DNA of 63,746 nucleotides, filler included, from Candidatus Nanoarchaeia archaeon (GCA_035290625.1; 5 parts of 5 records of this genome joined end to end with filler, not necessarily neighbours in it), one strand, 5' to 3'. Counted from the whole stretch's first letter, positions 15,649 to 62,731 are shown. Notes: generated from the letters alone by a model not told the origin. Numbers and translations are program-made.

Positions 15649-15832
15649 GGCTCAGTAGAAAGTCCGGCATCATTTTTGCGGGCTTCTTCAGCTCCATAAA
15701 CGGTGCTGACAGAGGGTAGGCCCCTTCGGGGCTGCCAGCATACGCGAATCCAAGCGCAAGCGAGCCGTCGGCGTGCGAGCAAGCCCACCTTGCTCGCTTG
15801 CAAGCCACTGCCGACTGACTTCCTACTGAGCC
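15649..15832. mobile_element. MITE-like element family B, copy 1 (184 bp)
   Basis: TIR GGCTCAGTAG..CTACTGAGCC; homologous to 21536-21719. Confidence 0.8.
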
Positions 15833-15870
15833 ATACAGAAGAGAGGTTAAGGGACAAAGCAATACTTGCA

Positions 15871-17754
15871 TCAGGCAGATTTCAGCTTCTTAAGGATTTC
15901 CTGTTTTCCTTTCCAGTTCAACGCCTCGGCCAAGACATCAACTATTGAGCTAACAGCAATAATCTCTATCTTTTTCATCTTGGCAGGATCAAGGATGATA
16001 TCATTCAGGTTTGATTGAGGCACAATGACTTTCTTCAGTCCTGCTTCTATTGCCGCCTCCACCTTCGCAGATACCCCCCCAACGGGAAGGACATCTCCTC
16101 GAACGGAAAGTGATCCAGTCATCGCAATGCTCTGCTTCACAGGGATTTCATGGAGTGCAGAGATGATAGAGGTTGCCAAAGCTATAGAGGCTGAGTCCCC
16201 TTCAACTCCTTCATAGGTTTGGAGGAATTGCACAAAAATGTCATATTTCTCCTTGATGTCAACGCCAAAGTAGCGCTTAATCACGGCAGAGACATTCGTA
16301 ACAGCCTCTTTCGCAATCTCACCGAGCTTTCCAGTTGCAATAATCTTTGAGCCTTTTCCAGGAGTCACTTGGGATTCGATAGGAAGGATGATTCCTGCAT
16401 AGACTGCTGTCTCTCCGCCTCCCAAGACAGCGAGGCCATTGACTCTCCCGACTTTCTCACCCTGGGTAATAATCACATTATACTCTTTTTTGCGCTCAAT
16501 GTATTTATCAGAGATCTGCTGCTCCAAGGTACGCGCAGACTTCATGCCTGCAAGGATATGCTCTTTGGTGGCAAGGGATGCGTTCTGTTCAACAGCAACA
16601 TCCCCTGCTGCACGGATAAGGCCCCCAAGCTCCCTGAGCCGAAGAGTCAAGTGCCCTTTCCTGCTTGCCCTGCGTTTTGCCTCCTCGATGATCTCAAGAA
16701 CAGCATCCCTGCTAAAGGGAGGAATCTTTTTATCCCGGCTGATCTCCTGGGCAACGAATAATGCCAGTTTATTCCTGTTCTCTGCGGTGTCTGGCATGGT
16801 TTCCTGCATAAACACCTCATACCCATACCCCCGTATTCTGGACCGCAGCGCCGGATGCATGTTCTTTATGGTCTCCTGGTTGCCTGCTGCAACAAGGACG
16901 AAATCGCAGGGAACTGGCTCAGTCCGTACCATCGCTCCCGCAGAGCGCTCGCTCTGTCCGGTAATGCTGAATTTCTTTTCCTGCAGCGCAGAGAGAAGCT
17001 CCTGCTGGGTCTGCGGCGCCAGCGTTGCCATCTCATCAATGAACAGCACGCCCATATGCGCCTTATGGATCATCCCTGCAACAACACGCTCATGCGCAGG
17101 AGTTCCAAGGCCGCCGCTTTGAAAGGGATCATGAAGCACATCGCCAAGCAGGGCTCCTGCATGGGCTCCTGTAGCATCATAGAATGGAGCCTGTTTTTGC
17201 TGGAAATTATCAACAATGATTTTTGGAATCCTTGTACGATCTCCCATCTTCTTTCCAAGGTTCATGAAGATGGCAAAGGCTACGAGAAATGCCATCCCTC
17301 CAAGGAAGAATGCGGTGAACATTATGGCAGCGACTGTAGCTCCATACAGCTTAGTATAGTAGGAATATGCCCACCAGGGCGCAAACATGGCAACAAGGAC
17401 AAGGATAAACATGACAAAGTTCTGGTTCTTAAAGCTCGTCACGCTCTGGACACGTGCTTTCGCAACAAGCTCCCGGGAGGACCCGCCCGGCATCGTCCTG
17501 ATAAGAGGCTGGTTCTCATCATTAGGGTTGGGAAAAGCTACAATATCCAAGAGCTTCTCCTTGGGAAGCAGCTCTGCCAACGCCATTCCAAGCATGGATT
17601 TGCCTGTTCCAGGATCCCCAATGAGGAAAACATGCCTGCGCTGCTTGCTCGCCTTCCTGCTGATAGCAACAGCATGATCCTGGCCAATAACCTGATCGAT
17701 AAGCGCCTTTGGCACTTGCAGTTCTGCTGTCGTCTCAAATTGTAGGGAAGGCAT
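15871..17754 (-). CDS. lonB: Archaeal ATP-dependent protease LonB
   Basis: [10 protein letters not shown] insertion, LFIDE, EGDSAS catalytic Ser, PVGGVSAK. Confidence 0.96.
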
Positions 17755-17830
17755 GAATGACCAGAATCGAGGTGCTTTTAAAAAGATTATGATTTAAGGC
17801 ACAGGCCATAGGAAATGCCCAAAGCAAAAA

Positions 17831-18027
17831 GGCTCCGGTGAAAATGGCGTTGCCGTCAGTTCGTGAGGCTCTTAAGCACAAAGACGTCAAACCGACGAGG
17901 GGGTTGTCCCATTCGGGGAATGCCGGTCACCCCCATTGTATGCGCAGCCGAACCGACGTGCTCCGAAGGAGCGCCCGGAAATGCTTGGCATTTCCGACGG
18001 CAACCTTGAAAAGATTTTCACCGATCC
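17831..18027. mobile_element. MITE-like element family C, copy 1
   Basis: TIR CGGTGAAAAT..ATTTTCACCG; flanked by direct repeat AAGCAAAAA (17822-17830, 18028-18036). Confidence 0.8.
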
Positions 18028-18186
18028 AAGCAAAAAGTAAAAGTATAAATAACCGAGCCATTCTCCCTCACTGCATGAAAATTGCTAAAGATGCGGAGAG
18101 TGGATACGCTGTGTCTTTAGGCCTGCTTCTCCTGCTGCTCTGAGGCCCCATCGCCGGGATATCCTTGATGGGCCTTTGCATATGAT

Positions 18187-18750
18187 TTGTTCTGGGGTAT
18201 TCTGGCAATGCAAAAAAAGGTTACTGCAATGACTATCGTATCTCCCAGTGAAGGGCTTTTAAGAAAGCTGAGTGATGAGAGAATCATATACTTGAAGCGT
18301 GAGGAGAGAGCTTTCCTTGAGCGCGGCATGAGCAGAGAGGAAGTTCGTTTTCGATACAGCCAGGATAGGGTGGGAATCAGGGGGATTGTCACGTCGTTAG
18401 GAGGACCTATCAGGATTGGGGGTAAAATAGTGTTAAGCCTGCCTGAGACCCTAAAATTCGGGTCTGAAAAAGGCGTGGAGTGTGTAGAGGCAGTGGAGTA
18501 TCCATCTCATGCAACCTTCGAATCTGTTGGCCTTTACTGGATGGAGGACGCAGCAACAGGGATCCATGAGGAATCTGAGCAGCAAGGATTGCAGGATTTA
18601 GTATTTCCTGCGATGCTCATCTACGCTCTCAACCATATGGAGCAGATAGGAACCTATCAGTATCGTTTTAAGAAAGGAGTTCCACGAGAGGGCACCATTC
18701 TGGCAGCATACGTCACCGATAAATACGTCAGGACCCCGGCATACTTTTAA
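18187..18750 (+). CDS. Hypothetical protein
   Basis: 187-aa ORF with no recognisable motif; start uncertain. Confidence 0.5.
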   Translation: MFWGILAMQKKVTAMTIVSPSEGLLRKLSDERIIYLKREERAFLERGMSREEVRFRYSQDRVGIRGIVTSLGGPIRIGGKIVLSLPETLKFGSEKGVECVEAVEYPSHATFESVGLYWMEDAATGIHEESEQQGLQDLVFPAMLIYALNHMEQIGTYQYRFKKGVPREGTILAAYVTDKYVRTPAYF

Positions 18751-18776
18751 ACAGGAGCAAATCCCTTTCTATAACT

Positions 18777-19115
18777 GTGAAAGAAGCGACAATCCTCAAA
18801 ATTAGCCTTGTAACCACGATTATAGGCCTATTTCTTTTATTTTACATTGGACTACAGCCGCTTGCCGAAACTTCAGCAGAAGATCTCCTGGAAAAAACAG
18901 AAGGAGCCGTGAAATTTACAGGCCAGGTCAAAGGCGTATCAAGAGCAGAGGGAGTTACTTTTGTAAAAGTGGTGCAGCCTGTAGAGACAACAGTTGTTGT
19001 TTTTGGCAATACAATCAACCTCAGCCAGGGAGATACTATTGAGATCATTGGAGACCTAGACCAGTTTAATGGGCAAAAAGAAGTTATTGCACGCAGAATC
19101 CGCATGGTTACATGA
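18777..19115 (+). CDS. Membrane-anchored OB-fold protein
   Basis: N-terminal TM; VKFTGQV...GDTIEIIG....GQKEVIA. Confidence 0.7.
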   Translation: MKEATILKISLVTTIIGLFLLFYIGLQPLAETSAEDLLEKTEGAVKFTGQVKGVSRAEGVTFVKVVQPVETTVVVFGNTINLSQGDTIEIIGDLDQFNGQKEVIARRIRMVT

Positions 19116-19146
19116 GAGAGCAAAGATAGGATTGAGTAAGGTAGGA

Positions 19147-20199
19147 TTAAGAAAGTTGTGTGGAGAGTTCTAGAGCAGGCAAATCCGCTGTAGTAATCCG
19201 TTGAGGGAGATAAGGCAATAGAAATGCCGGAGTAATGCCCATGTCCTGGTACCTTTCCCTTGTCTTGCGAATGGTGGGCTTGAGATACTTTAGGTATTCA
19301 TCCAAAGGCTCAGTAAAAGGATATTCCTGTCCATCCTCCTGGATTGTTGACCGAATATTGCTAAGCTCCTTCTGAATAATGAATGGGGGGCTCATGCTGT
19401 GCGAAATAAAGTCTGGATCATAATTTCCGATATTGTTCCCTATCAAACAGTAATGGATAAGCTGCCTGTCAAGAATCTCCATCAAGCCGAGAGCCTGCAG
19501 CTTGCCAAAATAGTACCCAAGCTTTTCCGTAGCGGCTGATGTATCCCGAAGAAGAGGGAAGAATCCGCGTAAGTACCAGAGTTTGTCTGAATTTGAAGCC
19601 AGCGCAGAAAATGGAGGCGTAACTCTGCCAAGATCAGTAGAGCTGTAGATTCTCTCTAATCCAATGAGAAGATGAGGTTCGGGGATTACCATCAGACCCC
19701 CATTCTTAGCTGCGCCAATCTGAGCAGGGGTTTTAGAGGAACCATAAAACTGCGCGGTTGAATCGTAATCAAACTTCTTGCCTAATCTCCTTCTGGCTAT
19801 TGGAGCAATCATTGTATCAAGAGGGTATTTCCGGGCCTCCCGTAAGATAAGAACACTCCCATCCTGCCCCTGCAGGCATGCGATGTTCGGAAGTTTTAAC
19901 ATGTCAGAATCAAAATTACTGCGGGGTCGTACTTCATACATTTTCTTTGAAGTGTCATCAAACATAATCTCCGCGAGGATATTAGCTGGTTCGGTTTGCC
20001 GCCAAGCAGCAACTTTGCGGGTAACCGGCTCATTATATTGCGGATCTGCGTGGTTCTTCCGCTTAAAGGAATTGAGATTAAGGTGAACCACATCTTCAAG
20101 TCCAGTATAGAGGGCATCAAAAACCTGTTGAGGGCTAAGTTCCTCCCCTTGTAAGGTAAAGGATATTCTGCGTGGTTTTCCCCTCTCGAAATTTGCCAT
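19147..20199 (-). CDS. Hypothetical protein
   Basis: 350-aa ORF with upstream TTTATAAA. Confidence 0.6.
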   Translation of the reverse strand: MANFERGKPRRISFTLQGEELSPQQVFDALYTGLEDVVHLNLNSFKRKNHADPQYNEPVTRKVAAWRQTEPANILAEIMFDDTSKKMYEVRPRSNFDSDMLKLPNIACLQGQDGSVLILREARKYPLDTMIAPIARRRLGKKFDYDSTAQFYGSSKTPAQIGAAKNGGLMVIPEPHLLIGLERIYSSTDLGRVTPPFSALASNSDKLWYLRGFFPLLRDTSAATEKLGYYFGKLQALGLMEILDRQLIHYCLIGNNIGNYDPDFISHSMSPPFIIQKELSNIRSTIQEDGQEYPFTEPLDEYLKYLKPTIRKTRERYQDMGITPAFLLPYLPQRITTADLPALELSTQLS

Positions 20200-20314
20200 G
20201 GGCTACATGCAAGTCCTTAGGGTTTATAAATCTTCCTTTTTTAACTACTTATAGATAGTTAAATTATTGAGTTTCGGTCATAAGCTATTATAAGTCCAGA
20301 ATATCTCTCCCTAT

Positions 20315-21523
20315 ATGTTTGAGATTATTGTTGCCATTGGCGTAGGGATCGTTTTCGGCATCATCACCGGCCTTACTCCGGGCATCCATATCAATCTCGT
20401 CAGTGTGCTGTTGGTCAGCTCCTCAAGCTACTTTCTTGGCTTTACAGAGCCAATCACGCTTGCGGTGTTCATTATAGCTATGGGGGTCACGCATACATTC
20501 CTTGATGCCATCCCCTCCATTTTCCTGGGAGCCCCAGATGAGTCCCAAATCCTCAATGTGCTGCCAGGCCATCGCTTATTGCTGAGAGGGATGGGCTATG
20601 AGGCAGTGAAGCTGACAGTAATTGGTTCCTTAATGGGGCTTCTGATAACAATCCTATTGCTCCCTATACTCATGCCGCTTTCGATCATTATATTTACAGG
20701 ATTGCAGAACGTGGTTGGCTACATCTTGGTGGCTGTAAGCGTCTTCATGATACTCAAGGAGAGAGGATTAAACAGGAAATTCTGGGCGTTTCTGGTGTTT
20801 ATGCTCTCAGGCATCCTTGGAGTCCTTGTCCTTACGATGCCTGATATCAGCCAGCCTTTATTCCCATTGCTTTCTGGCTTATTTGGAGTTGCCACACTCC
20901 TGGATTCGCTGACCCAGAACGTAAGCCTTCCTAAGCAACGAGTGACTGAAATGATAACACCAGAAAGGTCAGGCATGCTCAAGGCATTCGGAGGGGCTGT
21001 TTTTTCAGGCTCATTAACAGGATTGTTTCCTGGACTTGGCTCAGCTCACGCAGCAATCATTGCGATGCAGTTCCTTGGAAACATCGGCATGTACAGCTTT
21101 ATGATACTGATTGGAGGGATTAGCACGGTGAACTTCCTCTTCTCTCTGGTAACATTTTACACAATTGATAAGGCAAGGAACGGAGGCATTGTAGCCATAC
21201 AGGAGATTGTAGGAAGCATTGATTTCAGCCAGTTCATGCTTCTTGTGGCAGTTTCCCTTGTTGCTGGAGGCATTGCTACCTTCCTTGCATTGCTCTTCAG
21301 CAGGGGCTTTGCAGCTATTGTGAGCAAAGTGAACTACAAGCATCTCAGTCTGACGATTATGCTCCTCATTGGAATTCTTGCGGTCGTCTTTGATGGTCTT
21401 ACTGGCCTCTTAATCCTTGCCGCAAGCACAGCGATTGGTTTGATCCCTCCGCATGTGCAGGTGAAGCGCAGCATGGCAATGGGCGTTCTGCTGCTTCCTG
21501 TCATTCTGTTCTTCCTCTTGTGA
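20315..21523 (+). CDS. TctA-like (DUF112) membrane permease
   Basis: GLTPGIHIN, IPSIFLGAP, LPGHRLL; multiple TM helices. Confidence 0.88.
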   Translation: MFEIIVAIGVGIVFGIITGLTPGIHINLVSVLLVSSSSYFLGFTEPITLAVFIIAMGVTHTFLDAIPSIFLGAPDESQILNVLPGHRLLLRGMGYEAVKLTVIGSLMGLLITILLLPILMPLSIIIFTGLQNVVGYILVAVSVFMILKERGLNRKFWAFLVFMLSGILGVLVLTMPDISQPLFPLLSGLFGVATLLDSLTQNVSLPKQRVTEMITPERSGMLKAFGGAVFSGSLTGLFPGLGSAHAAIIAMQFLGNIGMYSFMILIGGISTVNFLFSLVTFYTIDKARNGGIVAIQEIVGSIDFSQFMLLVAVSLVAGGIATFLALLFSRGFAAIVSKVNYKHLSLTIMLLIGILAVVFDGLTGLLILAASTAIGLIPPHVQVKRSMAMGVLLLPVILFFLL

Positions 21524-21535
21524 GATCTATCTTCC

Positions 21536-21719
21536 GGCTCAGTAGAAAGTCCGGCATCAATTCTGCGAGCTTCTTTGCAATCATGAGCAGTGCTGACAGA
21601 GGGTTGCCCCATCCGGGGGTGTCAGCAATCGCAGATACAAGAACAAGCGAGCCGGTGGCTAGCGAGCAAGCTCGCCTTGCTCGCTTGCAAGCCACTGCCG
21701 ATTGAATTTCTACTGAGCC
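21536..21719. mobile_element. MITE-like element family B, copy 2 (184 bp)
   Basis: TIR GGCTCAGTAGAAA..TTTCTACTGAGCC; CTTCC repeated on both flanks. Confidence 0.8.
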
Positions 21720-22333
21720 CTTCCTGTAACCACATATTCGAGCTTGCGGGTATTGATGAAAAGATTGTAAAGATACGCGCGCAGCTCTTCAAGCTTTGCT
21801 TTGAATTTAGGCATTCTGCCAAGAATTTGCTCTGCTGTCTTGTACACACTCTTATGATAAGGAGGAATATTCTTTGCTAAAATTTCCTCCTTAAGCTCCA
21901 GATATGATTCACAGGTGGAAAGTTCGCCCTGGATTTCAGTAGTCAAGAGCCGAAGCTCTTTCTGGAAGTCCTCAACCTCTTTCAGTTCAGACTCCACAAA
22001 TTGTTTAATCTCAGTAAGTGGTTTCTGATTTGGCAAGCGTAAAGCAGAGGACTTAAGAGAATATGTAATTCTTTCCAAATTCTTATGCGACCGGTTCAGC
22101 TTCTGTAAAAAAGAAAGCGTCTTTGTAAGGTTATCACGTGCTTTTGCCAGCATCTTTATGCTGAAGGAGACATCCGGCTTCGGAAGCATATAACCAGCAA
22201 ATTGTTCTCCTTCAGAATATGCACGGATGGCCTTATCAAGAAGCTTGCATTCCTTCGCCTCTGCGCACTCCTGAAGGAGCGATGCTTCAGAAATGCTTTC
22301 AGGCTTTTTTCTGAACCAGTTAAGGAGGCCCAT
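21710..22333 (-). CDS. Hypothetical helical/coiled-coil protein; stop codon lies inside the family B element
   Basis: ORF from MGLLNWFRKK; the upstream ORF extension lies in a repeat. Confidence 0.55.
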   Translation of the reverse strand: MGLLNWFRKKPESISEASLLQECAEAKECKLLDKAIRAYSEGEQFAGYMLPKPDVSFSIKMLAKARDNLTKTLSFLQKLNRSHKNLERITYSLKSSALRLPNQKPLTEIKQFVESELKEVEDFQKELRLLTTEIQGELSTCESYLELKEEILAKNIPPYHKSVYKTAEQILGRMPKFKAKLEELRAYLYNLFINTRKLEYVVTGRAQ

Positions 22334-22378
22334 AAGGAGATCATATACCAATGCTAATAAAAAGGTTTTGGATGACGC

Positions 22379-22544
22379 AGACGCAATTGAAAAGTTATGC
22401 AGCGCCATCTTGTGAGCCATAGTATGCTGGAAGTATCACACCGACAAGAGGGTCGGCTCCTACGGAGAATGTCGGTTATCCGCCTTCTGGTGCATGGCGA
22501 ACCTGGCGCTGCCGAGCGAAGCGAGCAGCTTTTCAATTGCGCCC
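22379..22544. mobile_element. MITE-like element family A, copy 1
   Basis: TIR CGCAATTGAAAAG..CTTTTCAATTGCG; flanking direct repeat GATGACGC(AG). Confidence 0.85.
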
Positions 22545-22590
22545 GATGACGCAGCAAACCTTATAAACCATCTATAACCTCCCTGAATGC

Positions 22591-22851
22591 ATGGAAGCAG
22601 TCATCATCAATTACCGCTCAAATCGCCACAGCCAGACTTGCCATCACATCATTGCTGAAACCAGGGGAATCAGCAAAAGGGATGACGCTGCAAAGCTTGT
22701 CGGCAAAGAGGTCAGCTGGAAGTCGCCTGCTGGAAAAGAGATAAAAGGGAAGGTTGCCTCTGCGCATGGCAATAAAGGCGCCTTAAGGATCATCTTTGAG
22801 AGAGGCCTTCCAGGCCAGGCATTGGGCGGCAAGATTGAGATAAAGGCCTAA
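22591..22851 (+). CDS. rpl35ae: 50S ribosomal protein L35Ae
   Basis: IKGKVASAHGNKGALRIIFERGLPGQALG. Confidence 0.95.
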   Translation: MEAVIINYRSNRHSQTCHHIIAETRGISKRDDAAKLVGKEVSWKSPAGKEIKGKVASAHGNKGALRIIFERGLPGQALGGKIEIKA

Positions 22852-25718: not shown

Positions 25719-25812
25719 CGGACAATCTGCGCGTTTTCAATCTCCAGAAAAGCCCGGTCACCTGTCAGGAATATTCGGTGATTTTCTAAAGCAAAGGTAT
25801 AGCCCCGAGTGT
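25715..25812 (-). pseudogene. VapC/PIN-domain C-terminal remnant
   Basis: GYTFALENHRIFLTGDRAFLEIENAQIVR*; no intact upstream frame seen. Confidence 0.5.
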
Positions 25813-25942
25813 GGTTAATAATTCAAATGATATAGCAAGATTTCTTGCTATATTAAGGATATTGTGCCTTAAGATAATGATGGCACAATATGACAATATC
25901 TTTGCTTCTTTCTTAAGTCTTGTAGTCATTAATCCTGCATTG

Positions 25943-26042: not shown

Positions 26043-26043
26043 C

Positions 26044-26229
26044 AGAGTCAACAGGCCACAAACCAACGGCAAAGTAGAACGCTTCTTCCTCAGCTACAAG
26101 ACAGAATACGCAACAGGATCATTCGCTAATCTTGCTGACTATATCAGGCATCATAATGAGGCACGGCCTCATATGAGCCTGAACTTCAAGACTCCAAGAG
26201 AAGTATGGAATGAACTAAAGCGGAAGTAG
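26044..26229 (+). mobile_element. IS481-like DDE transposase C-terminus (truncated by gap)
   Basis: RPQTNGKVERFF...HNEARPHMSLNFKTP; followed by duplicated CGGAAGTAGTTTCGTGA. Confidence 0.85.
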
Positions 26230-26269
26230 TTTCGTGACCGGAAGTAGTTTCGTGATAATAGAAAGGTGG

Positions 26270-26477
26270 GGCGCCATTGAAAAGTTCCTCACTTCGTTCG
26301 GCAACGCCAGGCTCGCCATATAACCCCCTCCTCATAAACGACATTCCCCGACTGGGGCATCCCCCTTGTCGTTGCTCTGCTCTCTATTTAAATGGCTCAC
26401 GGATGGCGTTGCACTAAAAAATCAAAGATTTTTGGTGCACCTCGCTTTGCTCGGTTGCATCACTTTTCAATGAGCCT
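26270..26477 (-). mobile_element. MITE-like element family A, copy 2 (inverted, with 46-bp internal insertion)
   Basis: TIR CATTGAAAAGT..ACTTTTCAATG; reverse complement aligns with the other A copies. Confidence 0.8.
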
Positions 26478-26529: not shown

Positions 26530-26631
26530 TGGGGCTGCCCGGACTTTCGACAGAGCAACAGAGGGCTCTCATTCGAACCGGGGACCTCTACCACCCCAAG
26601 GTAGGATCATACCAAGCTAGACCACAGCCCC
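26530..26631 (-). tRNA. tRNA-Pro(GGG) with 28-nt T-loop intron (26544-26571)
   Basis: Cloverleaf on minus strand; BHB helix TTCG/CGAA; excision gives CCCGG-TTCGAAT-CCGGG. Confidence 0.92.
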
Positions 26632-26753
26632 ACAGACAGAGTTTTTCTGCTCGGCTTTAATTTATTTTCTAAAACAAAATAGTGAGGCGCAAAAAAAAGC
26701 ACAATGTTTTTAAAGGGAGGTCAAAGATTCAACTGCTCCAAAAAGGAGGAAAC

Positions 26754-26971: not shown

Positions 26972-27093
26972 CCCCACCTAGCTCAACGGCAGAGCGCATG
27001 GCTGTAGATATCACGCAGAGGTGCCAATAAGGCTGGGATGAAGCGTGATCAGCCGTGACCATGAGGTTGCTGGTTCAAGTCCGGCGGTGGGGA
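26972..27093 (+). tRNA. tRNA-Tyr(GTA) with ~50-nt anticodon-loop intron
   Basis: CCCCACC/GGTGGGG acceptor stem; CATGG-CTGTAGA-CCATG after excision. Confidence 0.9.
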
Positions 27094-38956: not shown

Positions 38957-39048
38957 CGCTCCGGTGAAAATGGCGTTGCAAGAAAATTGGAGATTTTCTG
39001 CACGGAAAATCTATGATTTTCCTGTGCCGTCAATTCGTGAGGCTCTTA
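38957..39048. mobile_element. MITE-like family C, left part, interrupted by an IS200 element
   Basis: GCTCCGGTGAAAATGGCGTTGC..CGTCA(A/G)TTCGTGAGGCTCTTA matches 17832-17872, with a 48-bp insert. Confidence 0.75.
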
Positions 39049-39052
39049 TACG

Positions 39053-39193
39053 GTGACCTCCTCCCCGCCCTAAAGGGCGGGGCTTCCTGCGCTAACTGAA
39101 CACCACGTTGTGGTGTGCTTCCTGATTCTTGATATAGGCCTCACAAACGGCAAGATCATTCACTCCTACCGTCGCTGAATAACTGCTCGGCGC
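39053..39193 (-). mobile_element. tnpA: IS200-type element: tnpA 3' end plus right end
   Basis: APSSYSATVGVNDLAVCEAYIKNQEAHH..* (39092-39193), then GAAGCCCCGCCCTTTAGGGCGGGGAGGAGGTCAC. Confidence 0.88.
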
Positions 39194-39293: not shown

Positions 39294-39458
39294 GGTGGCA
39301 TTGAAAAGTCATGCAGCGCCCTCTTGTAAGCCATTATAACGGAGCGGCGGCACAGCGACAAGAGGGTCGCCTCCCTCGGAGAATGTCGCTATTCTGCCTG
39401 ACTTGCGCATGGCGAACCTGGCGCTGCCGAGCGAAGCGAGCAACTTTTCAATGCCACC
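39294..39458. mobile_element. MITE-like element family A, copy 3
   Basis: Perfect TIR GGTGGCATTGAAAAGT..ACTTTTCAATGCCACC. Confidence 0.88.
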
Positions 39459-51379: not shown

Positions 51380-51665
51380 TATCTGGAGCTTCATGGAATT
51401 TGAGGCGACGCTATAGCGTTAGCTTTCATGGAATAGCAAGAAGCAGGGGGTGGAAAGGAATATCTGGGACTAATCTCTGATCCTAATGCACCTACGTATC
51501 CTCTAAGTGTATGAGGGGGGTGCTTAGAGACTATATGGAATGAGAACGTTCGTCTGTAATCGGAGATGCTGGGTCAGAACCGGCTCGATTGCAAGTTAAC
51601 TCACAATTAGAAAGATTTAAGGGGGCTTCAGCCCCCATCTAATGGATAGATGGGGGTGGTGGAGA
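51380..51665 (+). pseudogene. Possible heavily degraded tnpB with right-end hairpin
   Basis: Broken frames WKGI..., YVSSKCMRG, RTFVCN..C, followed by CCCCCATCTA-ATGGA-TAGATGGGGG. Confidence 0.35.
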
Positions 51666-51721
51666 CCCCACAATGCGAAAGAGAACATATGATGTAGACC
51701 TTAATAAAGTTGTTGCTAAGA

Positions 51722-51821: not shown

Positions 51822-51941
51822 ACTGCGAATAGCATGCTCAAACGAGGCATGGGAGAAACCTTACGGGGGAAGTCCGTCGGCATGCAGGCAAGGCACTTCT
51901 ATATGAAGTGCTTTACGCATAATATGTTGGTGAGGGGTTAA
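51822..51941 (+). mobile_element. IS5/IS4-like DDE transposase C-terminus (truncated by gap)
   Basis: TANSMLKRGMGETLRGKSVGMQ....MKCFTHN pattern. Confidence 0.6.
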
Positions 51942-52060
51942 GATGGAACTTGCAATCGAGCCCGTAAATCAAAAACTTTAAATACTCTGAAAGGGGCGGT
52001 ATCCAAAAGGCACATATATTTGTATTGGCCTTGTAAAAAAACATCATCAAGCGAGGAGGA

Positions 52061-56280: not shown

Positions 56281-56287
56281 GTCTATC

Positions 56288-56605
56288 TCACTTGGACGCA
56301 GCTTTATCCTTTGGCTCAGCTTTCTTCCTGGCCTTCTTCGGTTTTGGCGTCTCCTCTTTCAGAGATTTTTTTACCGCGGCTTCAATGCCTATCTTCTTCA
56401 ATGCCTCAACGACAGCTTCGTGGTCTGCCTTCTGGCTGATTTCTATCACCTTATCAATGGGCTCGAGATGAAGTATATTGCATTTTCTTCTCCGTGTTTC
56501 CCCATCTACCAGAACATGATTCTTGTCAATGGTGTCAATGACAACACACCTCTTTCCAGCATCCCTTCCTGCAGTCTTCAGGCACAATCTTCCAACTTCC
56601 ATCAT
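56288..56605 (-). CDS. rpl14e: 50S ribosomal protein L14e
   Basis: EVGRLCLKTAGRDAGKRCVV...RRRKCNILHLEP. Confidence 0.95.
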   Translation of the reverse strand: MMEVGRLCLKTAGRDAGKRCVVIDTIDKNHVLVDGETRRRKCNILHLEPIDKVIEISQKADHEAVVEALKKIGIEAAVKKSLKEETPKPKKARKKAEPKDKAASK

Positions 56606-56889
56606 TGTGATGCACCTTTGAACTCCATACTGCGAGCCTTTACCGTGATACGCTGCCTTGTGCATCTGCTGCACAGCACGCCTCCAAAAGGGCGCTCGGG
56701 CCTTTTCTGAGTCTTTGCCATGCTCCTGAGCTCTGCCGGGCTCGCCCTCGGCATCCCCTTTAGAGCATCGCCGCAGCCAGCACATCTATGCTGCTTCGGC
56801 TTTCTCTTCTTGTACTGTATGACTCTCCCTTTGGGAACCCGTACATGGATACGCCTGTATGTCCTGGACCGAAGACTGCCTCTGACCAT
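56602..56889 (-). CDS. rpl34e: 50S ribosomal protein L34e
   Basis: CAGCG, KRPERPFGGVLCSRC. Confidence 0.95.
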   Translation of the reverse strand: MVRGSLRSRTYRRIHVRVPKGRVIQYKKRKPKQHRCAGCGDALKGMPRASPAELRSMAKTQKRPERPFGGVLCSRCTRQRITVKARSMEFKGASQ

Positions 56890-57230
56890 GCTGGTTGGGG
56901 GTAGGGATGGGTTTAAAAAGGTTGCTTTATCATGGGCGTAACTCAGCGTTCGTATTTAATGCCCATGTATAAACCATAATCAGATAAAACTGGATGTCCT
57001 GGTTTTAAGCCAGCGCAAGCTTGTTCTGCTGCTACTGAAAACACCATCACCGGCATATTTCTTGTATGCGCTTGCTCAGCAACTGCCGCAACAGAAGGAG
57101 TTTCTGCAGAAGAGCTATATGGCTCGATTATTACAATGTCATAATTTCAAGAGGTTTTTAGGGAATTCTCTCCGTTAAAGCGAACAAAGTGATCAATCTA
57201 GGAAAACAGAAAGGGCAAGGAGTAGTTTTA

Positions 57231-57548
57231 TTACATTGGAATTATTTTGATTCCTTCTTTGTCTTTCGTTAATGTTCCATGTTTTCCAGCAGAAATATTG
57301 TATTCATCTGCAATGTCGCTTGGAATTCTAACAGCAATACTATTTCCCCATTTAGAAAATGTTATATCTTTTGCATGCCTTAATTTTCTATATTTGCCTG
57401 CCAATACTTTTAATTGTTTCATATTCATAATTTCTTCTCCACATTCCAAGCATTTATAAGTTTCAAATTCTATTCCATCCTGCTCCATAACATCTTTTTT
57501 CTTTTCCATTTTTCCTTTCTGACATACTGGGCATTTCATTTTAATCAC
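57231..57548 (-). CDS. Putative antitoxin: YgiT-type zinc finger + AbrB/MazE domain
   Basis: CPVC...CLECGE; SKWGNSIAVRIP. Confidence 0.85.
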   Translation of the reverse strand: MIKMKCPVCQKGKMEKKKDVMEQDGIEFETYKCLECGEEIMNMKQLKVLAGKYRKLRHAKDITFSKWGNSIAVRIPSDIADEYNISAGKHGTLTKDKEGIKIIPM

Positions 57549-57783
57549 CTCGTTCTATTGTTTTGATTATTATACAATGACCTAAATCTTCGCCAACACA
57601 GATTATTGAGCCTTCTTTGCTCTTTTTGACAAATTTTATTCCATGCTTTCCAAATCTTTTTACTTTTCCTGTTTGCAAAACATCGTAAACTTGGTCTGGA
57701 AAAGCAATTTCTCTTTCCCTTGCTCTTTTAACAGCATGGACTTTGATGACAATAGGTTTACCTTGAAAGTAAATATCTTCCAT
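57541..57783 (-). CDS. Putative DUF4258/RelE-like toxin
   Basis: HAVKRARER.I, C-terminal IIKTI; overlaps the antitoxin start. Confidence 0.7.
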   Translation of the reverse strand: MEDIYFQGKPIVIKVHAVKRAREREIAFPDQVYDVLQTGKVKRFGKHGIKFVKKSKEGSIICVGEDLGHCIIIKTIERGD

Positions 57784-57893
57784 GATGTAGATACTTGGAT
57801 ATACATGTATATAAATCTTGTGGTTTTATGAATGTTAGTTAAGGGGAAAAAGAAAACGTAACTATTATAAAGTAAATATTATTTCGGTTATAT

Positions 57894-58667
57894 ATGAAAT
57901 TCAGACCATGCATTGATATTCATAAAGGACAAGTCAAACAAATTGTGGGTGGGACTTTAAGAGATGATTCTCTGGGTTTAATTGAAAATTTTGTTGCCGG
58001 CAAAGATGCTGCTTATTTTGCAGAAATGTATAAAAAAGATCGATTAATAGGTGGGCATGTGATTATGCTTGGACCTGGGAATGAAGAAGAAGCGTTAAAA
58101 GCATTAAGAGCATATCCTCAAGGATTACAGATTGGCGGAGGAATCAAACCTGAAAATGCAGAATATTTTTTAGAACAAGGAACAAGCCATGTTATTGTAA
58201 CCTCTTATGTTTTTAAAGATGGTAAGATTAATTTTGAGAATCTCGACAAATTAGTTAGCGTTGTTGGAACTAACAGATTAGTTCTAGATTTGAGTTGTAG
58301 GGAAAGAGATGGAACATATTTAGTTGTGACAGATAGATGGCAAAATTTTACAGATTTTGAAGTAACTCCTGAGCATCTTGGCCAATTAGCTAGTTATTGT
58401 GATGAATTTCTCATTCATGGAGCTGATGTTGAAGGCCAATGTAATGGAATTCAAACAGGCCTTGTACGAAGATTAGGATTATGGGCAAGTAGACAAGATG
58501 TTAATACTACTATGACTTATGCTGGAGGAATTCGATCCTTAGATGATCTTAAATCAACGCAGCGTCTTGGCAATGGTAAATTAGATTTTACAGTAGGTAG
58601 TGCTCTAGATATTTTTGGTGGAAAATCATTAACTTACAGGGAAGTTGTTGATTGGAAACCAGAGTAG
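57894..58667 (+). CDS. hisA: HisA isomerase of the His6 ('eukaryotic') type
   Basis: FRPCIDIHKGQVKQIVGGTL, GGHVIMLG, LDLSCR, TVGSALDIFGG. Confidence 0.93.
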   Translation: MKFRPCIDIHKGQVKQIVGGTLRDDSLGLIENFVAGKDAAYFAEMYKKDRLIGGHVIMLGPGNEEEALKALRAYPQGLQIGGGIKPENAEYFLEQGTSHVIVTSYVFKDGKINFENLDKLVSVVGTNRLVLDLSCRERDGTYLVVTDRWQNFTDFEVTPEHLGQLASYCDEFLIHGADVEGQCNGIQTGLVRRLGLWASRQDVNTTMTYAGGIRSLDDLKSTQRLGNGKLDFTVGSALDIFGGKSLTYREVVDWKPE

Positions 58668-59000
58668 TTTTCTTTTGCCCAAAATAAATTGTTTTGCCCC
58701 CGAGTAATCTTGAAACTAATTCTTGTTAAGTTCGTTTCCCATACGCAAGTGTGGGAAAACTGCGTCCGCAGAGTTGTGTTTAAGTTCCAATCAATCCGAG
58801 GCGTAGCCGAGACATACTGTCCGAAGGACTGGGGGAGTTCTATTCCATAAAAAGAGCTTTAGCGATACTACAAGAATAAGGATCAGGGGGAGTTCCTATC
58901 TTGTTTTTCGCATTCCAAGGCGGGGCGTTTCTTACAAAGACTACTTTACAGTGATAAATAGCGAAAGCTTTATAAATAAGTGTTTATTTTAGCTCTTAAA

Positions 59001-59843
59001 ATGACATTAGAAAACGTTACAGGAAATTTATTGGCTTACAAAGGATTAGAGCCAGGCACATTTCAGCATGTTGACCAGCTTACTACTGAGCGAAGAACCA
59101 ATCATGGATTAAGAAATCAATGGTTTTATACTGCTGATGGAGAATTATATACTGTTCAAAAAAGAAAGCATTTATGGGTTATTACTCGTGAACCACAAAA
59201 TTTAGTCTTAGAAAATATTGACGGAGCATATAGGCAACTAACAGTACAAGGAGACTATTTTCCCGATACCGAAGCTGCTCAAACTTCTTTAGAGCATAAA
59301 GACAGTGTTGTTGTTAATCTAAAAGGATTAAAACTTGTGAAAGATAATGATCAATATGGTCACTTTGTGGTTGATCCTAAAGCAGTAAAGAAGTTAAATT
59401 CTGAGCAAAGAAAAGCTGCTCAACGTATCTATGGTCCCGATGAGGAAAATTTTGGCCTAAACATGGAGATGTTTGCAGAAGCAGGAAAAACTCCCTATGT
59501 TTTAGTATTAATGCCTGATTATGTGCAAGGTACTTTAAGAAGTAATGATAAAAAATTCGTTGGGCGGGCTTCGTGGCTGAATGGTTTCGGCAGCAATTCC
59601 CATTTCAATGCCCTTGATCGTGACGTAGACAATCGGGACGCCCTGCGTGGGGTACGTCGTGTCATCGCCGAAGGCGACGCGCCCGAAAATGAAGTTCCAC
59701 ATGCTCCACAGGAAACAGGAATTGTTGGACAGCTTCCACTTGAAGATATTCTAGCTTGTTTGGGCGAGGATGTTGCTCCATCTGTAAGACCTGCTATTGA
59801 AGGAAGAATAAAAGAAGTTTATAGAAAAGCATATAAACAATAA
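59001..59843 (+). CDS. Probable DGR target (variable) protein
   Basis: C-terminal RASWLNGFGSNSHFNALDRDVDNRDALRGV followed by a TCGCC-GAA-GGCGA hairpin. Confidence 0.65.
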   Translation: MTLENVTGNLLAYKGLEPGTFQHVDQLTTERRTNHGLRNQWFYTADGELYTVQKRKHLWVITREPQNLVLENIDGAYRQLTVQGDYFPDTEAAQTSLEHKDSVVVNLKGLKLVKDNDQYGHFVVDPKAVKKLNSEQRKAAQRIYGPDEENFGLNMEMFAEAGKTPYVLVLMPDYVQGTLRSNDKKFVGRASWLNGFGSNSHFNALDRDVDNRDALRGVRRVIAEGDAPENEVPHAPQETGIVGQLPLEDILACLGEDVAPSVRPAIEGRIKEVYRKAYKQ

Positions 59844-59872
59844 TTTTTTCTTCACAATTGAAACTAATTGCT

Positions 59873-60126
59873 GTTATCTACCCCGAGCCGAAGGCGAGAG
59901 CGCAGCGGGGGTTGCCCCCTTCGGGGTGCCGAGTAGGCTGAGCGGAGCGAAGCCGTCCGAAGCCATCTTCATCACCGCCGACTGCATAAATAATGAATTT
60001 ATCAGGAACTCCAAAAAATTGTAGATAATTCCTGTTCTACGCCCTGAGCTGAAAGCGAAAGTGCAACGTTGTCGAGGATTTGTGAAGCAAACCGCAGAAG
60101 TTTTTTCGTCGCCGCATAGCTTTAAC
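59873..60126. repeat. GC-rich multi-hairpin noncoding element related to the MITE core
   Basis: GGGGGTTGCCCCCTTCGGGG and GAGCGAAGC motifs shared with families A-C. Confidence 0.45.
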
Positions 60127-60195
60127 AGGAGTTGGGGGTTAAATCTAAGTTTTTTGAATTTTATTTTTAGCAAACATTGTTATCCATGACGCAAA

Positions 60196-60295
60196 NNNNN
60201 NNNNNNNNNNNNNNNNNNNNNNNNNNNNNNNNNNNNNNNTTAATTAATTAANNNNNNNNNNNNNNNNNNNNNNNNNNNNNNNNNNNNNNNNNNNN
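60196..60295. other. Artificial contig linker
   Basis: N-run with TTAATTAATTAA. Confidence 0.98.
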
Positions 60296-60654
60296 CGAGG
60301 TAAGACCGCATCGAAGCTTACGCTTCGAGATTCTGGAAACTCCAGAGCAGGCATTTGTCAGGAAGATGAAAAAGGAGGCTTAATAAACATGAAACGAATT
60401 AAGCTATCGAAGGGAAATACTTTCAGGATAGCACAGCTGCTAAGTTGTTAACCCTACTTTTTGCAAAGGGAAGGGTGCCGCCCCTTTTGCGAGGCAGCCC
60501 AACTGAACTTGAAAAGTTTAATTTACCGCTTGGCAGAAACTCCTGTAAGATTCCGATTTGCCTAAGACACCGCCTTTTCCGCACTTCCAATACTTGGCTG
60601 CTGCCAGTTCGCGAACCATAACCCTTTTAAACACTTGCCAATTTCATCCCTCTT

Positions 60655-61038
60655 ATGGCATTCACCCATGGCAGATCCAGGCGTTCGACTTCAGGAGCCT
60701 ACATCAGAAAGAACCTTAAAGGCAGCAGGCATTTTGCTTCTGGACGGAACCCTACGTTTACCAAGTTTGGCCCAAGGAAGATCAAGCAGGATCGCCAGAA
60801 GGGCGGCGGCACCAAGACACGACTCCTTATGGCAGATATAGTCAATGTTTCTGATGCGAAAACAAAGAAAACATTTAAGGTTAAGATTACCGGAATCCTG
60901 GAGAACCCTGCGTCATCAAACCTTGTCAGGAGAAATATCCTCACAAAAGGAACTGTAGTCCAGACAGAAAAAGGCAAGGCAAGGATTACCTCGCGGCCAG
61001 GGCAGGAAGGGACTGTGAGCGGCGTTTTACTTTCTTAA
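60655..61038 (+). CDS. rps8e: 30S ribosomal protein S8e
   Basis: ENPAS.NLVRRNILTKG, ARITSRPGQEG. Confidence 0.96.
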   Translation: MAFTHGRSRRSTSGAYIRKNLKGSRHFASGRNPTFTKFGPRKIKQDRQKGGGTKTRLLMADIVNVSDAKTKKTFKVKITGILENPASSNLVRRNILTKGTVVQTEKGKARITSRPGQEGTVSGVLLS

Positions 61039-61103
61039 ATTCATCATTAATTAGGGGTTACAAAAAGGAATGTTTATAAACTAACGTATGTTTTCCCGAC
61101 GCT

Positions 61104-62120
61104 ATGAATGAACAATATGCTTGCCCGGCCCATGGGCATATGCTGACAAAGGCCCTCAATGAGGATGGCACTATTGTCCAGCTTCCGGATGCCCTCAAGG
61201 CAAGAGAGCAGCATTATTACTGCCCAAACCCAGAATGCGGGATTAGGGTGGTTCCAGAGGGTGGTTGCATCAACCGGGCTACAGATTTCTATCGGCACGG
61301 ACATTTTAATGCACTCCCTGGTATTCCATGCAAACGTCAGGAGACCTACACTGGGCCAAAAAAGTCTCTTACCTCGCTTGTTAAAGAGGCCATAGCTTCT
61401 GGTCTTACCTTCTCCCGTGATTTTGATGTGGTTGAGACTGATTCGTTGTACTCCAGCTTCCATCGTAGGGGTGGGGATACGGGATATACTCCAAAACAGC
61501 CTTTTACTGTAGATATCTTTTGCCGCAGAGAAGGCCGGTATGGCATGGACACTATCCTGCATGTTGTGGAGTTGCCTCTCAAAGGATCATGCAATGACCT
61601 CTATCAAAAAGTCAGGGAAATCGCTTTTGAGCTTCCTCCCTCAAGGAAGAAAAGGGTTCTTGAATCAAATAGCGGCACACTTGAGATTGCACAGCGCATC
61701 TATCAGAATTTTATTGTTGTGATGAATGAGCATTCCTATAAACCTGCTGGCCAAAACGCAGCTGAACTTCCACCTACGGTGCATAATTTTATCGGCGATC
61801 TCTCAGGGCCTATTTATTTTTTCGACCTGGAGCATTTTATTGTTTCAGATGTGAAACTTTCAAGTCCTGAGCCTGTTCCAGATACGCCTCCTAAAAATCC
61901 CAACCGCATTTTTCATGTCCATAAGCGGGATATGCCTTACTTCAGCCTTGAGGGTATTTGGATTGGCAATTTTGCAAAAGAGCTGAGGAACTGGAAGGGC
62001 AGGAACAGCGTGCATATCACTGCCTGGAAGAAAGCGGTTCCCATACCTCTTGATATCGATGAAAATGGAAATCCTGTTTCTGTGTTCCGCAATGGTGGCC
62101 AAGGAGAGTTTTTACTTTAG
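61104..62120 (+). CDS. Hypothetical protein with N-terminal Cys/His zinc-finger-like motif (CoiA-like)
   Basis: YYCPNPECG...HF......C; later VDIF. Confidence 0.55.
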   Translation: MNEQYACPAHGHMLTKALNEDGTIVQLPDALKAREQHYYCPNPECGIRVVPEGGCINRATDFYRHGHFNALPGIPCKRQETYTGPKKSLTSLVKEAIASGLTFSRDFDVVETDSLYSSFHRRGGDTGYTPKQPFTVDIFCRREGRYGMDTILHVVELPLKGSCNDLYQKVREIAFELPPSRKKRVLESNSGTLEIAQRIYQNFIVVMNEHSYKPAGQNAAELPPTVHNFIGDLSGPIYFFDLEHFIVSDVKLSSPEPVPDTPPKNPNRIFHVHKRDMPYFSLEGIWIGNFAKELRNWKGRNSVHITAWKKAVPIPLDIDENGNPVSVFRNGGQGEFLL

Positions 62121-62129
62121 GGGATTTAT

Positions 62130-62465
62130 ATGGCACTTGACCCTGAAGCGCGTTACTCTTTACAACTTACATCTCTTATAACCAAACTCATGAGTGCAGC
62201 AGGCCTTTATTCTACTAGTCGGGGATATATGTTGCAATCCCAATATGATACTGATGTTAAGCAGTCCTCCATTTTCGTCTATGAACTCCTTAAGGCCTTT
62301 CAGGCCTACCATACTAAGAAAGACTCAGGTTCGCTGCTTGCTGCAGACCCGTCCGCCAGCATACGAAGATTTATAATTGACTCAGCGGCAGACCTCCCTA
62401 AGAATGCCCGCGATTTTCTCGACGATGTTGTTACAGAAGGCATCGGTATGTTTCATGACCGGTGA
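62130..62465 (+). CDS. Hypothetical protein
   Basis: 111-aa ORF; its stop codon lies in the target duplication of the family A element. Confidence 0.5.
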   Translation: MALDPEARYSLQLTSLITKLMSAAGLYSTSRGYMLQSQYDTDVKQSSIFVYELLKAFQAYHTKKDSGSLLAADPSASIRRFIIDSAADLPKNARDFLDDVVTEGIGMFHDR

Positions 62466-62469
62466 AAAA

Positions 62470-62675
62470 GGTGGCATTGAAAAGTCATGCAGCGCCCTCT
62501 TGTGAGCCATCTTAAAATAAGACAGCAGAGCGACAAGGAGGTTGCCCCCTTCGGGGAATGTCGCTATTCTTCCTGACTTGCGCATGGCGAACTGCTCCGC
62601 AGGAGCGACCAAAAATGCGAAGCATTTTTGAGTACTGGCGCTGCCGAGCGAAGCGAGCAACTTTTCAATGCGACC
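62470..62675. mobile_element. MITE-like element family A, copy 4 (with 42-bp insertion)
   Basis: TIR GGT(G/C)GCATTGAAAAGT; perfect 8-bp TSD GTGAAAAA (62462-62469, 62676-62683). Confidence 0.9.
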
Positions 62676-62731
62676 GTGAAAAACCAACATCTTTATATAG
62701 CAAAAACGTCTGATTTCTCTGCAGAGGTGAA

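What the first reader, a model, noticed from the sequence alone, without database searches (positions are those of the whole stretch)
15649..62683. Three MITE-like families with different ends share one covarying structured core
Seen: family A (22379, 26270 inverted, 39294, 62470), B (15649, 21536) and C (17831, 38957 partial) have different TIRs (ATTGAAAAG, GGCTCAGTAG, CGGTGAAAAT). All full copies carry the same inner module: stem-GAC(A/G)-purine-rich (A)GAGGGT loop-short CCCC/GGGG hairpin-closing stem. Stems show compensatory changes between copies: AGCGACA/TGTCGCT, ACCGACA/TGTCGGT, AACGACA/TGTCGTT; CTCC/GGAG vs CCCC/GGGG; GCAGCGCC/GGCGCTGC vs GCAACGCC/GGCGTTGC vs GTTGCCGTC/GACGGCAAC. Linker sequences diverge. 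Established: ordinary MITEs need only their ends. Inference: the interior is a selected RNA or ssDNA structure (mobile ncRNA, processing/regulatory element or HUH/recombinase substrate) carried by several transposon ends. I cannot match it to a known family.
Basis: partly seen in the sequence, partly recalled or inferred. Interest (0 to 1): 0.85.

Follow-up and report, generated by a model that had tools for sequence, protein, structure and literature searches.

The report
Folded-core mini-transposons of DPANN archaea
A tiny groundwater archaeon carries well over a hundred miniature transposons with IS5-type ends that land just upstream of promoters and share one conserved folded interior, whose mutation pattern points to an unusual three-stranded DNA knot of unknown use.

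Summary
The seven window copies belong to a family of about 160-185 elements (about 2% of this 1.37-Mb MAG); a covariance model finds it in 41 of 149 other genomes of the order. A, B and C are end variants of one MITE type: their ends best match IS5-family elements of related genomes (14/14 in one case). A ends make 8-bp, B/C ends 9-bp target duplications. Copies sit 14-19 nt upstream of TATA boxes in either orientation. The interior covaries strongly, in a held-out set too, and has no Rfam match. Near-pure Watson-Crick stems (G-T = A-C), c(GNA)g loops and no orientation bias favour a DNA fold over an RNA. New here: three segments of the core change together as a mirror (A-T-A versus G-C-G), as a small triplex would require, in an order that fits none of the four described intrastrand classes. 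The same core also occurs in an IS6-ended MITE, in the 3' region of some IS5-like elements and in hairpins without ends, so it is a passenger module. Transposase partner, fold and function are inferred, not shown.

The parts
15649..15832 (+). MITE copy B1 (B/C-type ends); carries an optional hairpin module in its 3' arm; 9-bp duplication decayed (6 of 9)
17831..18027 (+). MITE copy C1; exact 9-bp target duplication; optional two-hairpin module after the G.A stem
21536..21719 (+). MITE copy B2; 13/13 terminal repeat, no 9-bp duplication left
22379..22544 (+). MITE copy A1; exact 8-bp target duplication; TATA-like box about 16 nt beyond its 3' end
22447..22468 (+). Core of A1: purine run u (22447-22452), 3-nt link, pyrimidine run c (22456-22460), T-N-C loop, purine run d (22464-22468); carries the A-T-A allele at position 3 of the proposed triplex
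   Evidence: sequence; covariation
26270..26476 (-). MITE copy A2 with an extra module in its left arm; an IS481-like element is inserted at its edge
38957..39052 (+). Left part of a C-type copy (end, P1 arm with an inserted hairpin, G.A stem), cut by an IS200-type element at 39053
39294..39458 (+). MITE copy A3, starting at a contig edge; near-identical copies on five other contigs
51582..51721 (+). Left end and first codons of an IS5-like element (8-bp duplications); intact copy elsewhere in the genome (L108)
51822..51962 (+). Last codons and right end of another copy of the same IS5-like element
59884..59965 (+). Hairpin without terminal repeats that carries the same core (59907-59927); member of a second repeat family; boundaries approximate
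62470..62675 (+). MITE copy A4; exact 8-bp target duplication; 43-nt two-hairpin module at about 62593-62635

Best explanation
These are non-autonomous transposons (MITEs) of about 163 bp, moved in trans by IS5-family DDE transposases of the same archaeal order (inferred from end identity and 8/9-bp duplications). They insert 14-19 nt upstream of a TATA box with the promoter firing away from them, in either orientation (shown as a statistic; cause inferred, probably TBP/TFB-bound or bent DNA). The interior is kept as a fold of single-stranded or extruded DNA: a rod made of the terminal repeats, stem P1, a stem with tandem G.A pairs, two unpaired spacers of about 20 nt, stem P2 and a core in which a purine run contacts a C-rich/G-rich hairpin as a third strand (secondary structure shown by covariation; triplex inferred from three-way covariation). 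The fold is selected at the level of the element: it makes a short element a better substrate or template during transposition and copying, so ends of different IS types that capture it spread to high copy number (inferred).
For: Ends: best match of 219 of 220 ends is an IS5-like end, 166 of 220 at 11/14 or more, 5 at 14/14 (panel of 14 IS5-like and 3 IS6-like ends); those ISs show 9-bp duplications, best family NF033579 for 7 of 7, over cut-off in 2; a collapsed IS with one of these ends lies at contig ends of this genome. Duplications: A ends 15 of 26 perfect 8-bp, 0 perfect 9-bp; other ends 18 of 134 perfect 9-bp, 2 perfect 8-bp. Promoters: 71 of 109 copies versus 355 of 3000 control sites; gene points away in 66 of 71. 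Fold: 82% of cells paired versus 67% shuffled and 33-48% slid in an unfitted alignment; 93% and 421 double changes versus 118 in 61 further hits. DNA: 35 G-T versus 31 A-C among about 3,140 stem cells here and 16 versus 18 in relatives; c(GNA)g hairpins 104 and 73 on the two strands versus 25 shuffled; GNRA = GNYA loops; 33 versus 24 copies with and against tandem genes. Triplex: where the hairpin pair is T-A the mirrored base is A in 23 of 25 and 12 of 12, 6 of 6 and 4 of 5 held-out, 16 of 16 in the second family (my count of 67 rows).
Against: No transposition, fold or transcript was observed. No IS with A-type ends was found, and most end types have no transposase visible in this assembly. 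A-type ends also carry unrelated interiors in other genomes, so the interior is not required for movement. 27 of 29 loci of the second core-bearing family show no duplication, so the core spreads or persists without IS ends. The three-way alleles may each have arisen once and been inherited; the position-2 allele can also be read as a register shift; 22 of 34 copies with A at u3 keep a C-G pair. The mirror geometry needs a 3-4 nt link to cross 4-5 triples, which I could not model. The core loop also reads as cUNCGg on the top strand in 46 copies. Folding energies do not separate the strands.
Confidence: 0.5

Rival explanations
1. The core (or the whole P1-to-P1' rod) is a selfish unit of its own, the substrate of an unidentified enzyme in the manner of REP/REPIN repeats; IS5 and IS6 ends only pick it up because all these elements crowd the same spot upstream of promoters.
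For: The core occurs in hairpins without terminal repeats in 28 of 261 genomes (27 of 29 fetched loci lack a duplication), in a 144-bp MITE with IS6-type ends and a perfect 9-bp duplication (L421), and in the 3' region of 3 of 8 related IS5-like elements. GNA-capped hairpin modules insert at fixed positions and are almost confined to the elements.
Against: No shared gene next to the end-less copies. No DUF559 gene in this genome, the partner that other AI notes propose for BoxC-type repeats. The full interior is nearly always inside ends at a constant total length (46 of 61 held-out hits with terminal repeats, mode 163-166 bp).
Confidence: 0.22
2. The fold acts in RNA: read-through transcripts reach the element just before the next promoter, and the structure terminates, processes or stabilises them, insulating the promoter and making insertions harmless.
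For: Position directly upstream of promoters. The tandem G.A pairs are on one strand in 95 of 102 copies, the linkers are A-rich on that strand, and the core loop reads cUNCGg in 46 copies. A pyrimidine-type triplex on the opposite strand could form in RNA (PMC4666352, introduction). MITE transcripts are known to fold (PMC10969869, passages).
Against: G-U is no commoner than A-C in stems. No orientation bias to genes or promoters. The base that should close a UNCG loop is often A or T. No Rfam family. A purine-type triplex on the G.A strand is said not to form in RNA (PMC4666352, introduction).
Confidence: 0.18
3. No selected function: arms of a palindrome are kept complementary by template switching during replication, and conservation reflects descent and horizontal spread of a few successful MITE masters.
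For: Stems are almost pure Watson-Crick with symmetric mismatches, as copy-correction would give; the terminal repeats covary just like the inner stems.
Against: Copy-correction should erase the tandem G.A mismatch and pair up the linkers; instead G.A is kept in 95 of 102 copies, linkers stay unpaired and near 20 nt while falling into 67 and 63 sequence clusters among 101 copies. It cannot produce mirror (non-complementary) covariation at two positions.
Confidence: 0.1

Closest known systems
MITEs derived from IS5-family elements; Sulfolobus SM3/SM3A moved by ISC1058
   Same: Archaeal non-autonomous element, terminal repeats matching an IS, short direct repeats; SM3A is 164 bp and depends on ISC1058 (PMC3718332, passages). 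That ISC1058 is IS5-family with 9-bp duplications is recalled, not from a call.
   Different: No sequence comparison with SM3 was made. Here dozens of end variants share one interior with order-wide covariation, optional modules and a fixed distance to TATA boxes; I saw none of this in the passages read.
IS5 family, NCBIfam NF033579 (transpos_IS5_2); IS903-like group
   Same: The autonomous elements with matching ends are 0.9-1.2 kb, encode 270-315 aa DDE transposases with NF033579 as best hit and make 9-bp duplications. Likeness to the IS903 group (G-rich ends, 9-bp duplication) is recalled.
   Different: 5 of 7 tested and the genome's own L108 fall below the family cut-off; the ISs do not carry the full interior.
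BoxC / PIT / TM-ECO intrastrand triplex repeats (Holder et al. 2015, PMC4666352)
   Same: Dispersed, intergenic, orientation-free repeats with three runs able to form a hairpin plus third strand, short 3-nt links, unknown function (introduction and passages).
   Different: TM-ECO runs pyrimidine-purine-purine with about 9-nt runs and was not found in mobile elements. Here the order is purine-pyrimidine-purine, runs are 5-6 nt, the first run mirrors the last, and the motif is nested in a stem inside MITEs.
Structured ssDNA candidates from comparative genomics (attC-like DUF1874, ARRPOF, GEBRO, PAGEV; PMC5737381)
   Same: Covarying folds that may work as single-stranded DNA and are hard to tell from RNA by sequence alone (passages).
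   Different: No Rfam match at gathering or E-value level; copies flank housekeeping genes such as rps15, not cassettes.

Membership tests
MITE (prokaryotic) | Short, multicopy, no transposase | tested here: met
   136-270 bp, 163 delimited copies, 28,970 bp; 110 well delimited
MITE (prokaryotic) | Terminal inverted repeats | tested here: met
   Left-right agreement 0.67-1.0 per position over the first 14 bases; 46 of 61 held-out hits
MITE (prokaryotic) | Target-site duplication | tested here: met
   8 bp in 15 of 26 A-type, 9 bp in 18 of 134 others, 30 with at most one mismatch; many are decayed, mis-delimited or mis-assembled
MITE (prokaryotic) | Mobilised in trans by an autonomous IS | not testable with these tools
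   Only end identity and duplication length are available
IS5-family-derived MITE | Ends match an IS5-family element with the same duplication length (B/C ends) | tested here: met
   14/14 to L276, 13/14 to L272 and L278; 9-bp duplications in L263, L276, L278; L272 and L278 pass the NF033579 cut-off
IS5-family-derived MITE | Same for A ends (8-bp duplication) | tested here: inconclusive
   Best match 11-12/14 to L272; the genome's own IS5-like L108 makes 8-bp duplications but matches most A ends poorly; no A-ended IS among 26 non-self loci
IS6-family-derived MITE | Ends match an IS6-family element | tested here: not met
   1 of 220 ends had an IS6-like best match. Met only by the core-bearing locus L421 of another genome
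BoxC/PIT/TM intrastrand triplex (classes I-IV) | Three runs in one of the four fold-back orders, third strand set by simple folding | tested here: not met
   Order purine-pyrimidine-purine with first run mirroring the last; class definitions from PMC4666352
BoxC/PIT/TM intrastrand triplex (classes I-IV) | Triplex formed in vitro (CD, NMR, DMS) | not testable with these tools
   No experiment possible
Known Rfam family | Score above gathering threshold | tested here: not met
   No hit on any element
REP/REPIN with RAYT, or other HUH substrate | No 8-9 bp duplication; linked HUH transposase gene | tested here: not met
   The main family has 8/9-bp duplications; no common gene beside 29 end-less core loci. 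RAYT itself was not searched for.
Integron attC array | Same-strand sites alternating with cassette ORFs, integrase gene | tested here: not met
   Closely spaced copies in G101 flank core genes; both orientations in this genome
Guide RNA (bridge-like or sno-like) with two variable segments | Variable segments match targets | tested here: not met
   Linkers match neither own flanks (5.8 versus 5.7 permuted) nor the masked genome (longest 15-16, shuffled 15); foreign targets not searched

The most novel reading that the evidence does not exclude
The 22-nt core is a new kind of intrastrand triplex, with a crossing link and a third strand that mirrors the far arm, and it is a portable cis-acting signal in single-stranded DNA. 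It is read by a host or mobile-element protein, moves between IS5 ends, IS6 ends and end-less hairpins across a whole DPANN order, and lets any element that carries it spread to a promoter-upstream safe site. The two 20-nt spacers would set the geometry of that protein-DNA complex.
Probability: 0.25. Interest if true: 0.85.

Novelty: new variant of a known kind. Interest (0 to 1): 0.62.

Why it matters
MITEs are common, and high MITE density in a Woesearchaeota genome is already in print (105 per Mb, PMC11602168, passage). What would surprise a specialist is an interior under structural selection across an order while ends are exchanged, with covariation that points to base triples. Natural covariation evidence for a DNA triplex is rare, and the role of dispersed triplex repeats such as BoxC is an open question; here the motif sits in an element with a candidate transposase, so its effect can be measured in a transposition assay. 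The fixed insertion point upstream of TATA boxes, shared by IS5-, IS6- and IS481-like elements of this genome, suggests promoter-guided targeting in archaea, which matters for how compact DPANN genomes tolerate 2% repeat load.

Tried and rejected
IS1595, ISL3, IS1 as partners: no family hit in this genome. IS6 as main partner: the genome has an active IS6 (L001, passes NF033587, 9-bp duplications), but its ends match poorly, and several high-copy genomes (G101, G119, G073, G069, G054) had no hit to the IS6 alignment at E 1e-10; assemblies drop ISs, so this is weak. Interior as part of an IS: 0 hits of model R2 in 81 IS loci, none with the sequence profiles. Cassette array: rejected. Linkers as guides: no match. 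DUF559 partner: none here. Viral contigs 0 matches; plasmids no match. Expression: no RNA holder was listed; three runs laid covered only rRNA, which says nothing either way. My first structure string was off by one column in two helices; model R1 was not used again and the slide control showed the error. RNAalifold found the G.A stem but paired the P2 5' strand with the link after the purine run; that pairing is possible but the outer P2 pairs covary with the 3' strand. The automatic end finder mis-delimits some copies, so later counts use 110 well-delimited ones. Apparent mosaics are partly assembly chimeras: the same left halves join different right halves in metagenome loci L142 and L166. 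Literature searches gave no description of this family; the supplement of PMC11602168, which lists 18,091 archaeal MITE sequences, could not be read and may hold these sequences.
Full report
Observation. The window is five contigs of a 1.37-Mb archaeal MAG joined by N spacers. A profile built from their cores finds 125 hits in the genome and none in the reversed genome. Profiles of the left and right ends find 174 and 115 hits, none in controls, in 185 clusters. An automatic end finder delimits 163 elements covering 28,970 bp, 2.1% of the genome; some are mis-delimited, so later counts use 110 clean ones. Two single copies fold far better than shuffles as DNA (z -4.1 and -6.5).

Anatomy. Each full copy reads: target duplication, terminal repeat, stem P1 (8 bp), a short bulge, a stem with a central tandem G.A, linker 1, stem P2, core, P2', linker 2, G.A stem', P1', a small GNA-capped hairpin, terminal repeat, duplication. 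Linker 1 is 19-21 nt in 72 of 101 parsed copies and linker 2 is 18-20 nt in 63 of 101. Their sequences fall into 67 and 63 clusters and do not pair with each other. The G.A/G.A centre is kept in 95 of 102 copies here and is replaced by Watson-Crick A-T pairs in some relatives. Optional hairpin modules of about 40-56 nt insert at fixed places and are almost confined to the elements.

Ends. A, B and C share GG(C/T)-N6-7-AAA, and more than 20 variants occur in this genome. Duplication length follows end type: A ends give a perfect 8-bp repeat in 15 of 26 and never a perfect 9-bp one; the others give a perfect 9-bp repeat in 18 of 134 (30 with one mismatch allowed) and a perfect 8-bp one in 2. Near-identical A copies at different sites with intact duplications show recent movement.

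Distribution. An exact 26-letter core pattern gave 39 loci in the species-genome collection, all titled archaeal: 31 Woesearchaeota, Nanoarchaeota or Nanoarchaeia, 3 'archaeon', 5 'uncultured Methanosarcinales' (I did not check those five labels). It gave 56 metagenome loci (many identical to this genome) and 0 viral loci. Model R2 hits 41 of 149 other genomes of the order, many with several copies (at most 23 candidates scored per genome; one of the 41, G131, is unpublished and enters only tallies). In a phylum-wide sample all 26 other positive genomes were of this order. Relatives keep the length near 163 bp and often a 9-bp duplication (46 of 61 held-out hits have terminal repeats, 12 a 9-bp repeat).

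Covariation. On a plain MAFFT alignment of 70 copies, 82.2% of cells pair against 67.0% in shuffles and 33-48% when partners are slid; 326 cells change on both sides against 113. The core columns there were fixed by the search pattern, but P1, the G.A stem and outer P2 were not. Model-fitted alignments of 52 and 61 further hits give 94.8% and 93.0%, with 325 and 421 double changes against 87 and 118; these lean towards the model. Rfam has no match at gathering level or among weak hits.

Partner transposases. The genome holds an IS6 (L001; 9-bp duplications) and an IS5-like element (L108; 8-bp duplications; its ends are in the window at 51582 and 51962). Screening PF01609 hits across the order showed 0.9-1.2 kb elements whose ends match MITE ends: L276 at 14/14, L272 and L278 at 13/14, L279 identical over 15 bases to an end type of this genome, L316 identical over 17 bases to MITE ends in other genomes; L263, L276 and L278 have perfect duplications that extend to 9 bp. 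Both ends of an L279-like IS lie at contig ends here. All 7 proteins tested have NF033579 (IS5 family) as best hit, 2 above cut-off. Of 220 ends, 219 match an IS5-like end best, in a panel of 14 IS5-like and 3 IS6-like ends. No IS with A ends was found among 26 non-self loci; there, A ends again show 8-bp repeats and carry either this interior or unrelated hairpin interiors. Earlier AI notes on this genome also named IS5; I read them.

Insertion site. Those notes also reported a fixed distance to promoters, which I then tested. A TATA-like motif lies 10-20 nt outward from an end in 71 of 109 copies, peaking at 14-19 nt, equally on the 5' (40) and 3' (38) side, against 355 of 3000 random intergenic sites. 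The gene beyond points away in 66 of 71 cases and its ATG is 42-48 nt from the end in 40 of 66. Room on the other side ranges from none to several hundred bases, so crowding alone does not fix the distance. IS6-like ends (7 of 9 with a motif, mostly 14-17 nt) and IS481-like ends (20-23 nt) do the same. Orientation to tandem genes is 33 with and 24 against. Gene calls were a simple longest-ORF rule.

DNA or RNA. Stems are nearly pure Watson-Crick: 35 G-T and 31 A-C cells here, 16 and 18 in relatives. RNA helices normally favour G-U strongly (established knowledge). c(GNA)g hairpins number 104 on the top and 73 on the bottom strand against 25 in shuffles, and GNRA and GNYA loops are equally common; d(GNA) triloops are very stable in DNA (PMC3201870, abstract listing). 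Against this, the G.A pairs are strand-specific, and the core loop reads cUNCGg on the top strand in 46 copies, largely the same sites as the bottom-strand GNA loops. No RNA run holds the stretch, which is uninformative.

The core. It has a purine run u (6 nt), a 3-nt link, a pyrimidine run c (5 nt), a T-N-C loop and a purine run d (5 nt). c pairs with d: c2=T goes with d4=A in 23 of 30 and c3=T with d3=A in 12 of 12. The run u changes with them at the mirrored position only: u2 is A in 23 of 25 copies with d4=A and u3 is A in 12 of 12 with c3=T, among 197 cores; off-diagonal pairs show no such link. With a parser blind to u, 56 of 61 held-out hits give A in 6 of 6 and 4 of 5 T-A cases against G in 43 of 47 and 46 of 51 C-G cases. 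A second context, searched with all three positions free, gives A-T-A 16, G-C-G 45, A-C-G 5, G-C-A 1 and G-T-A 0 in 67 rows (my count; five G131 rows dropped). Watson-Crick pairing in any single register cannot give this; G.G-C and A.A-T triples on the top strand, or C.G-C and T.A-T triples on the bottom, can (inference). Limits: the two alleles may each have one origin, the position-2 allele can be read as a register shift, family B has A at u3 with a C-G pair, and the short link must cross the helix. The order purine-pyrimidine-purine with mirror symmetry is none of the four classes in PMC4666352 (introduction part 1 and passages), whose TM-ECO motif was not found in mobile elements.

The core travels. 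It lies in the 3' non-coding region of IS5-like L286, L289 and L293, degenerate in L285, and absent from L287, L288, L292 and L295. It lies in a 144-bp MITE with a perfect 13-bp IS6-type repeat and 9-bp duplication (L421). It lies in hairpins without ends: 5 in this genome including window 59907, and in 28 of 261 genomes, with no duplication in 27 of 29 loci and no common neighbour gene. The full interior was not found in 81 IS loci.

Reading. Shown: copy number, ends, duplications, promoter distance, covarying secondary structure, three-way covariation, occurrence of the core under several end types. Inferred: mobilisation by IS5-family transposases (likely), a DNA-level fold (moderately likely), a triplex contact (about 0.65), and a benefit to spread (about 0.5). 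Precedents: SM3A of Sulfolobus, 164 bp and dependent on ISC1058 (PMC3718332, passages); internal sequences that raise or lower transposition of plant MITEs (PMC12595863, passages); high MITE density in a Woesearchaeota genome (PMC11602168, passages; supplement unreadable); ssDNA candidates among covarying motifs (PMC5737381, passages). PMC13343696, PMC10969869 and PMC6807381 (passages) did not mention this family in what I read.

Verdict. A new variant of a known kind: IS5-type MITEs with an undescribed, selected interior. The carrier is ordinary; the mirrored core and the promoter-upstream targeting are the parts worth an experiment. Interest 0.62.

Noticed in passing
window 26043-26269: 3' end of an IS481-like element (rve_3 hit) with a tandem repeat in its end; it inserted at the edge of MITE A2 with an apparent 15-bp duplication shared with contig C30.
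   Followed up: partly
window 39053-39193: End of an IS200-type element with a GC-rich hairpin, inserted into a C-type MITE; same end on contigs C18 and C54.
   Followed up: partly
window 25804-25942; G000 C34 end and C9 end: An IS end shared by several contigs is inserted inside the C-run of the MITE core in C34 and C9, suggesting an IS that hits the core. Family not determined; L107 (PF01609, 511 aa) has different ends.
   Followed up: no
G000 C15:2072-2290, C17, C30; C67:39800: Separate MITEs built from the ends of the genome's IS5-like element L108, without the core, and a 32-bp palindrome made of two IS6 ends.
   Followed up: no
L263, L269, L272, L278, L279, L108 (5' regions): The IS5-like elements share a hairpin pair just before the start codon that would hide a ribosome-binding site; sequences covary between elements.
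   Followed up: no
L185, L187-L207: Distant IS6-like ORFs of 280-590 aa without clear terminal repeats in many genomes of the order, one next to an integrase-like gene.
   Followed up: no
L328, L329, L340, L341, L346, L349: A-ended MITEs in two other genomes keep P1, the G.A stem and linkers but have a different A/T-rich P2 and altered core.
   Followed up: no
window 26972-27093: tRNA match spanning 122 nt, so probably intron-containing; another tRNA lies at about 26535-26635 that Rfam did not list.
   Followed up: no
window 60296-60400: End of another IS481-like element shared by eight contig ends.
   Followed up: no
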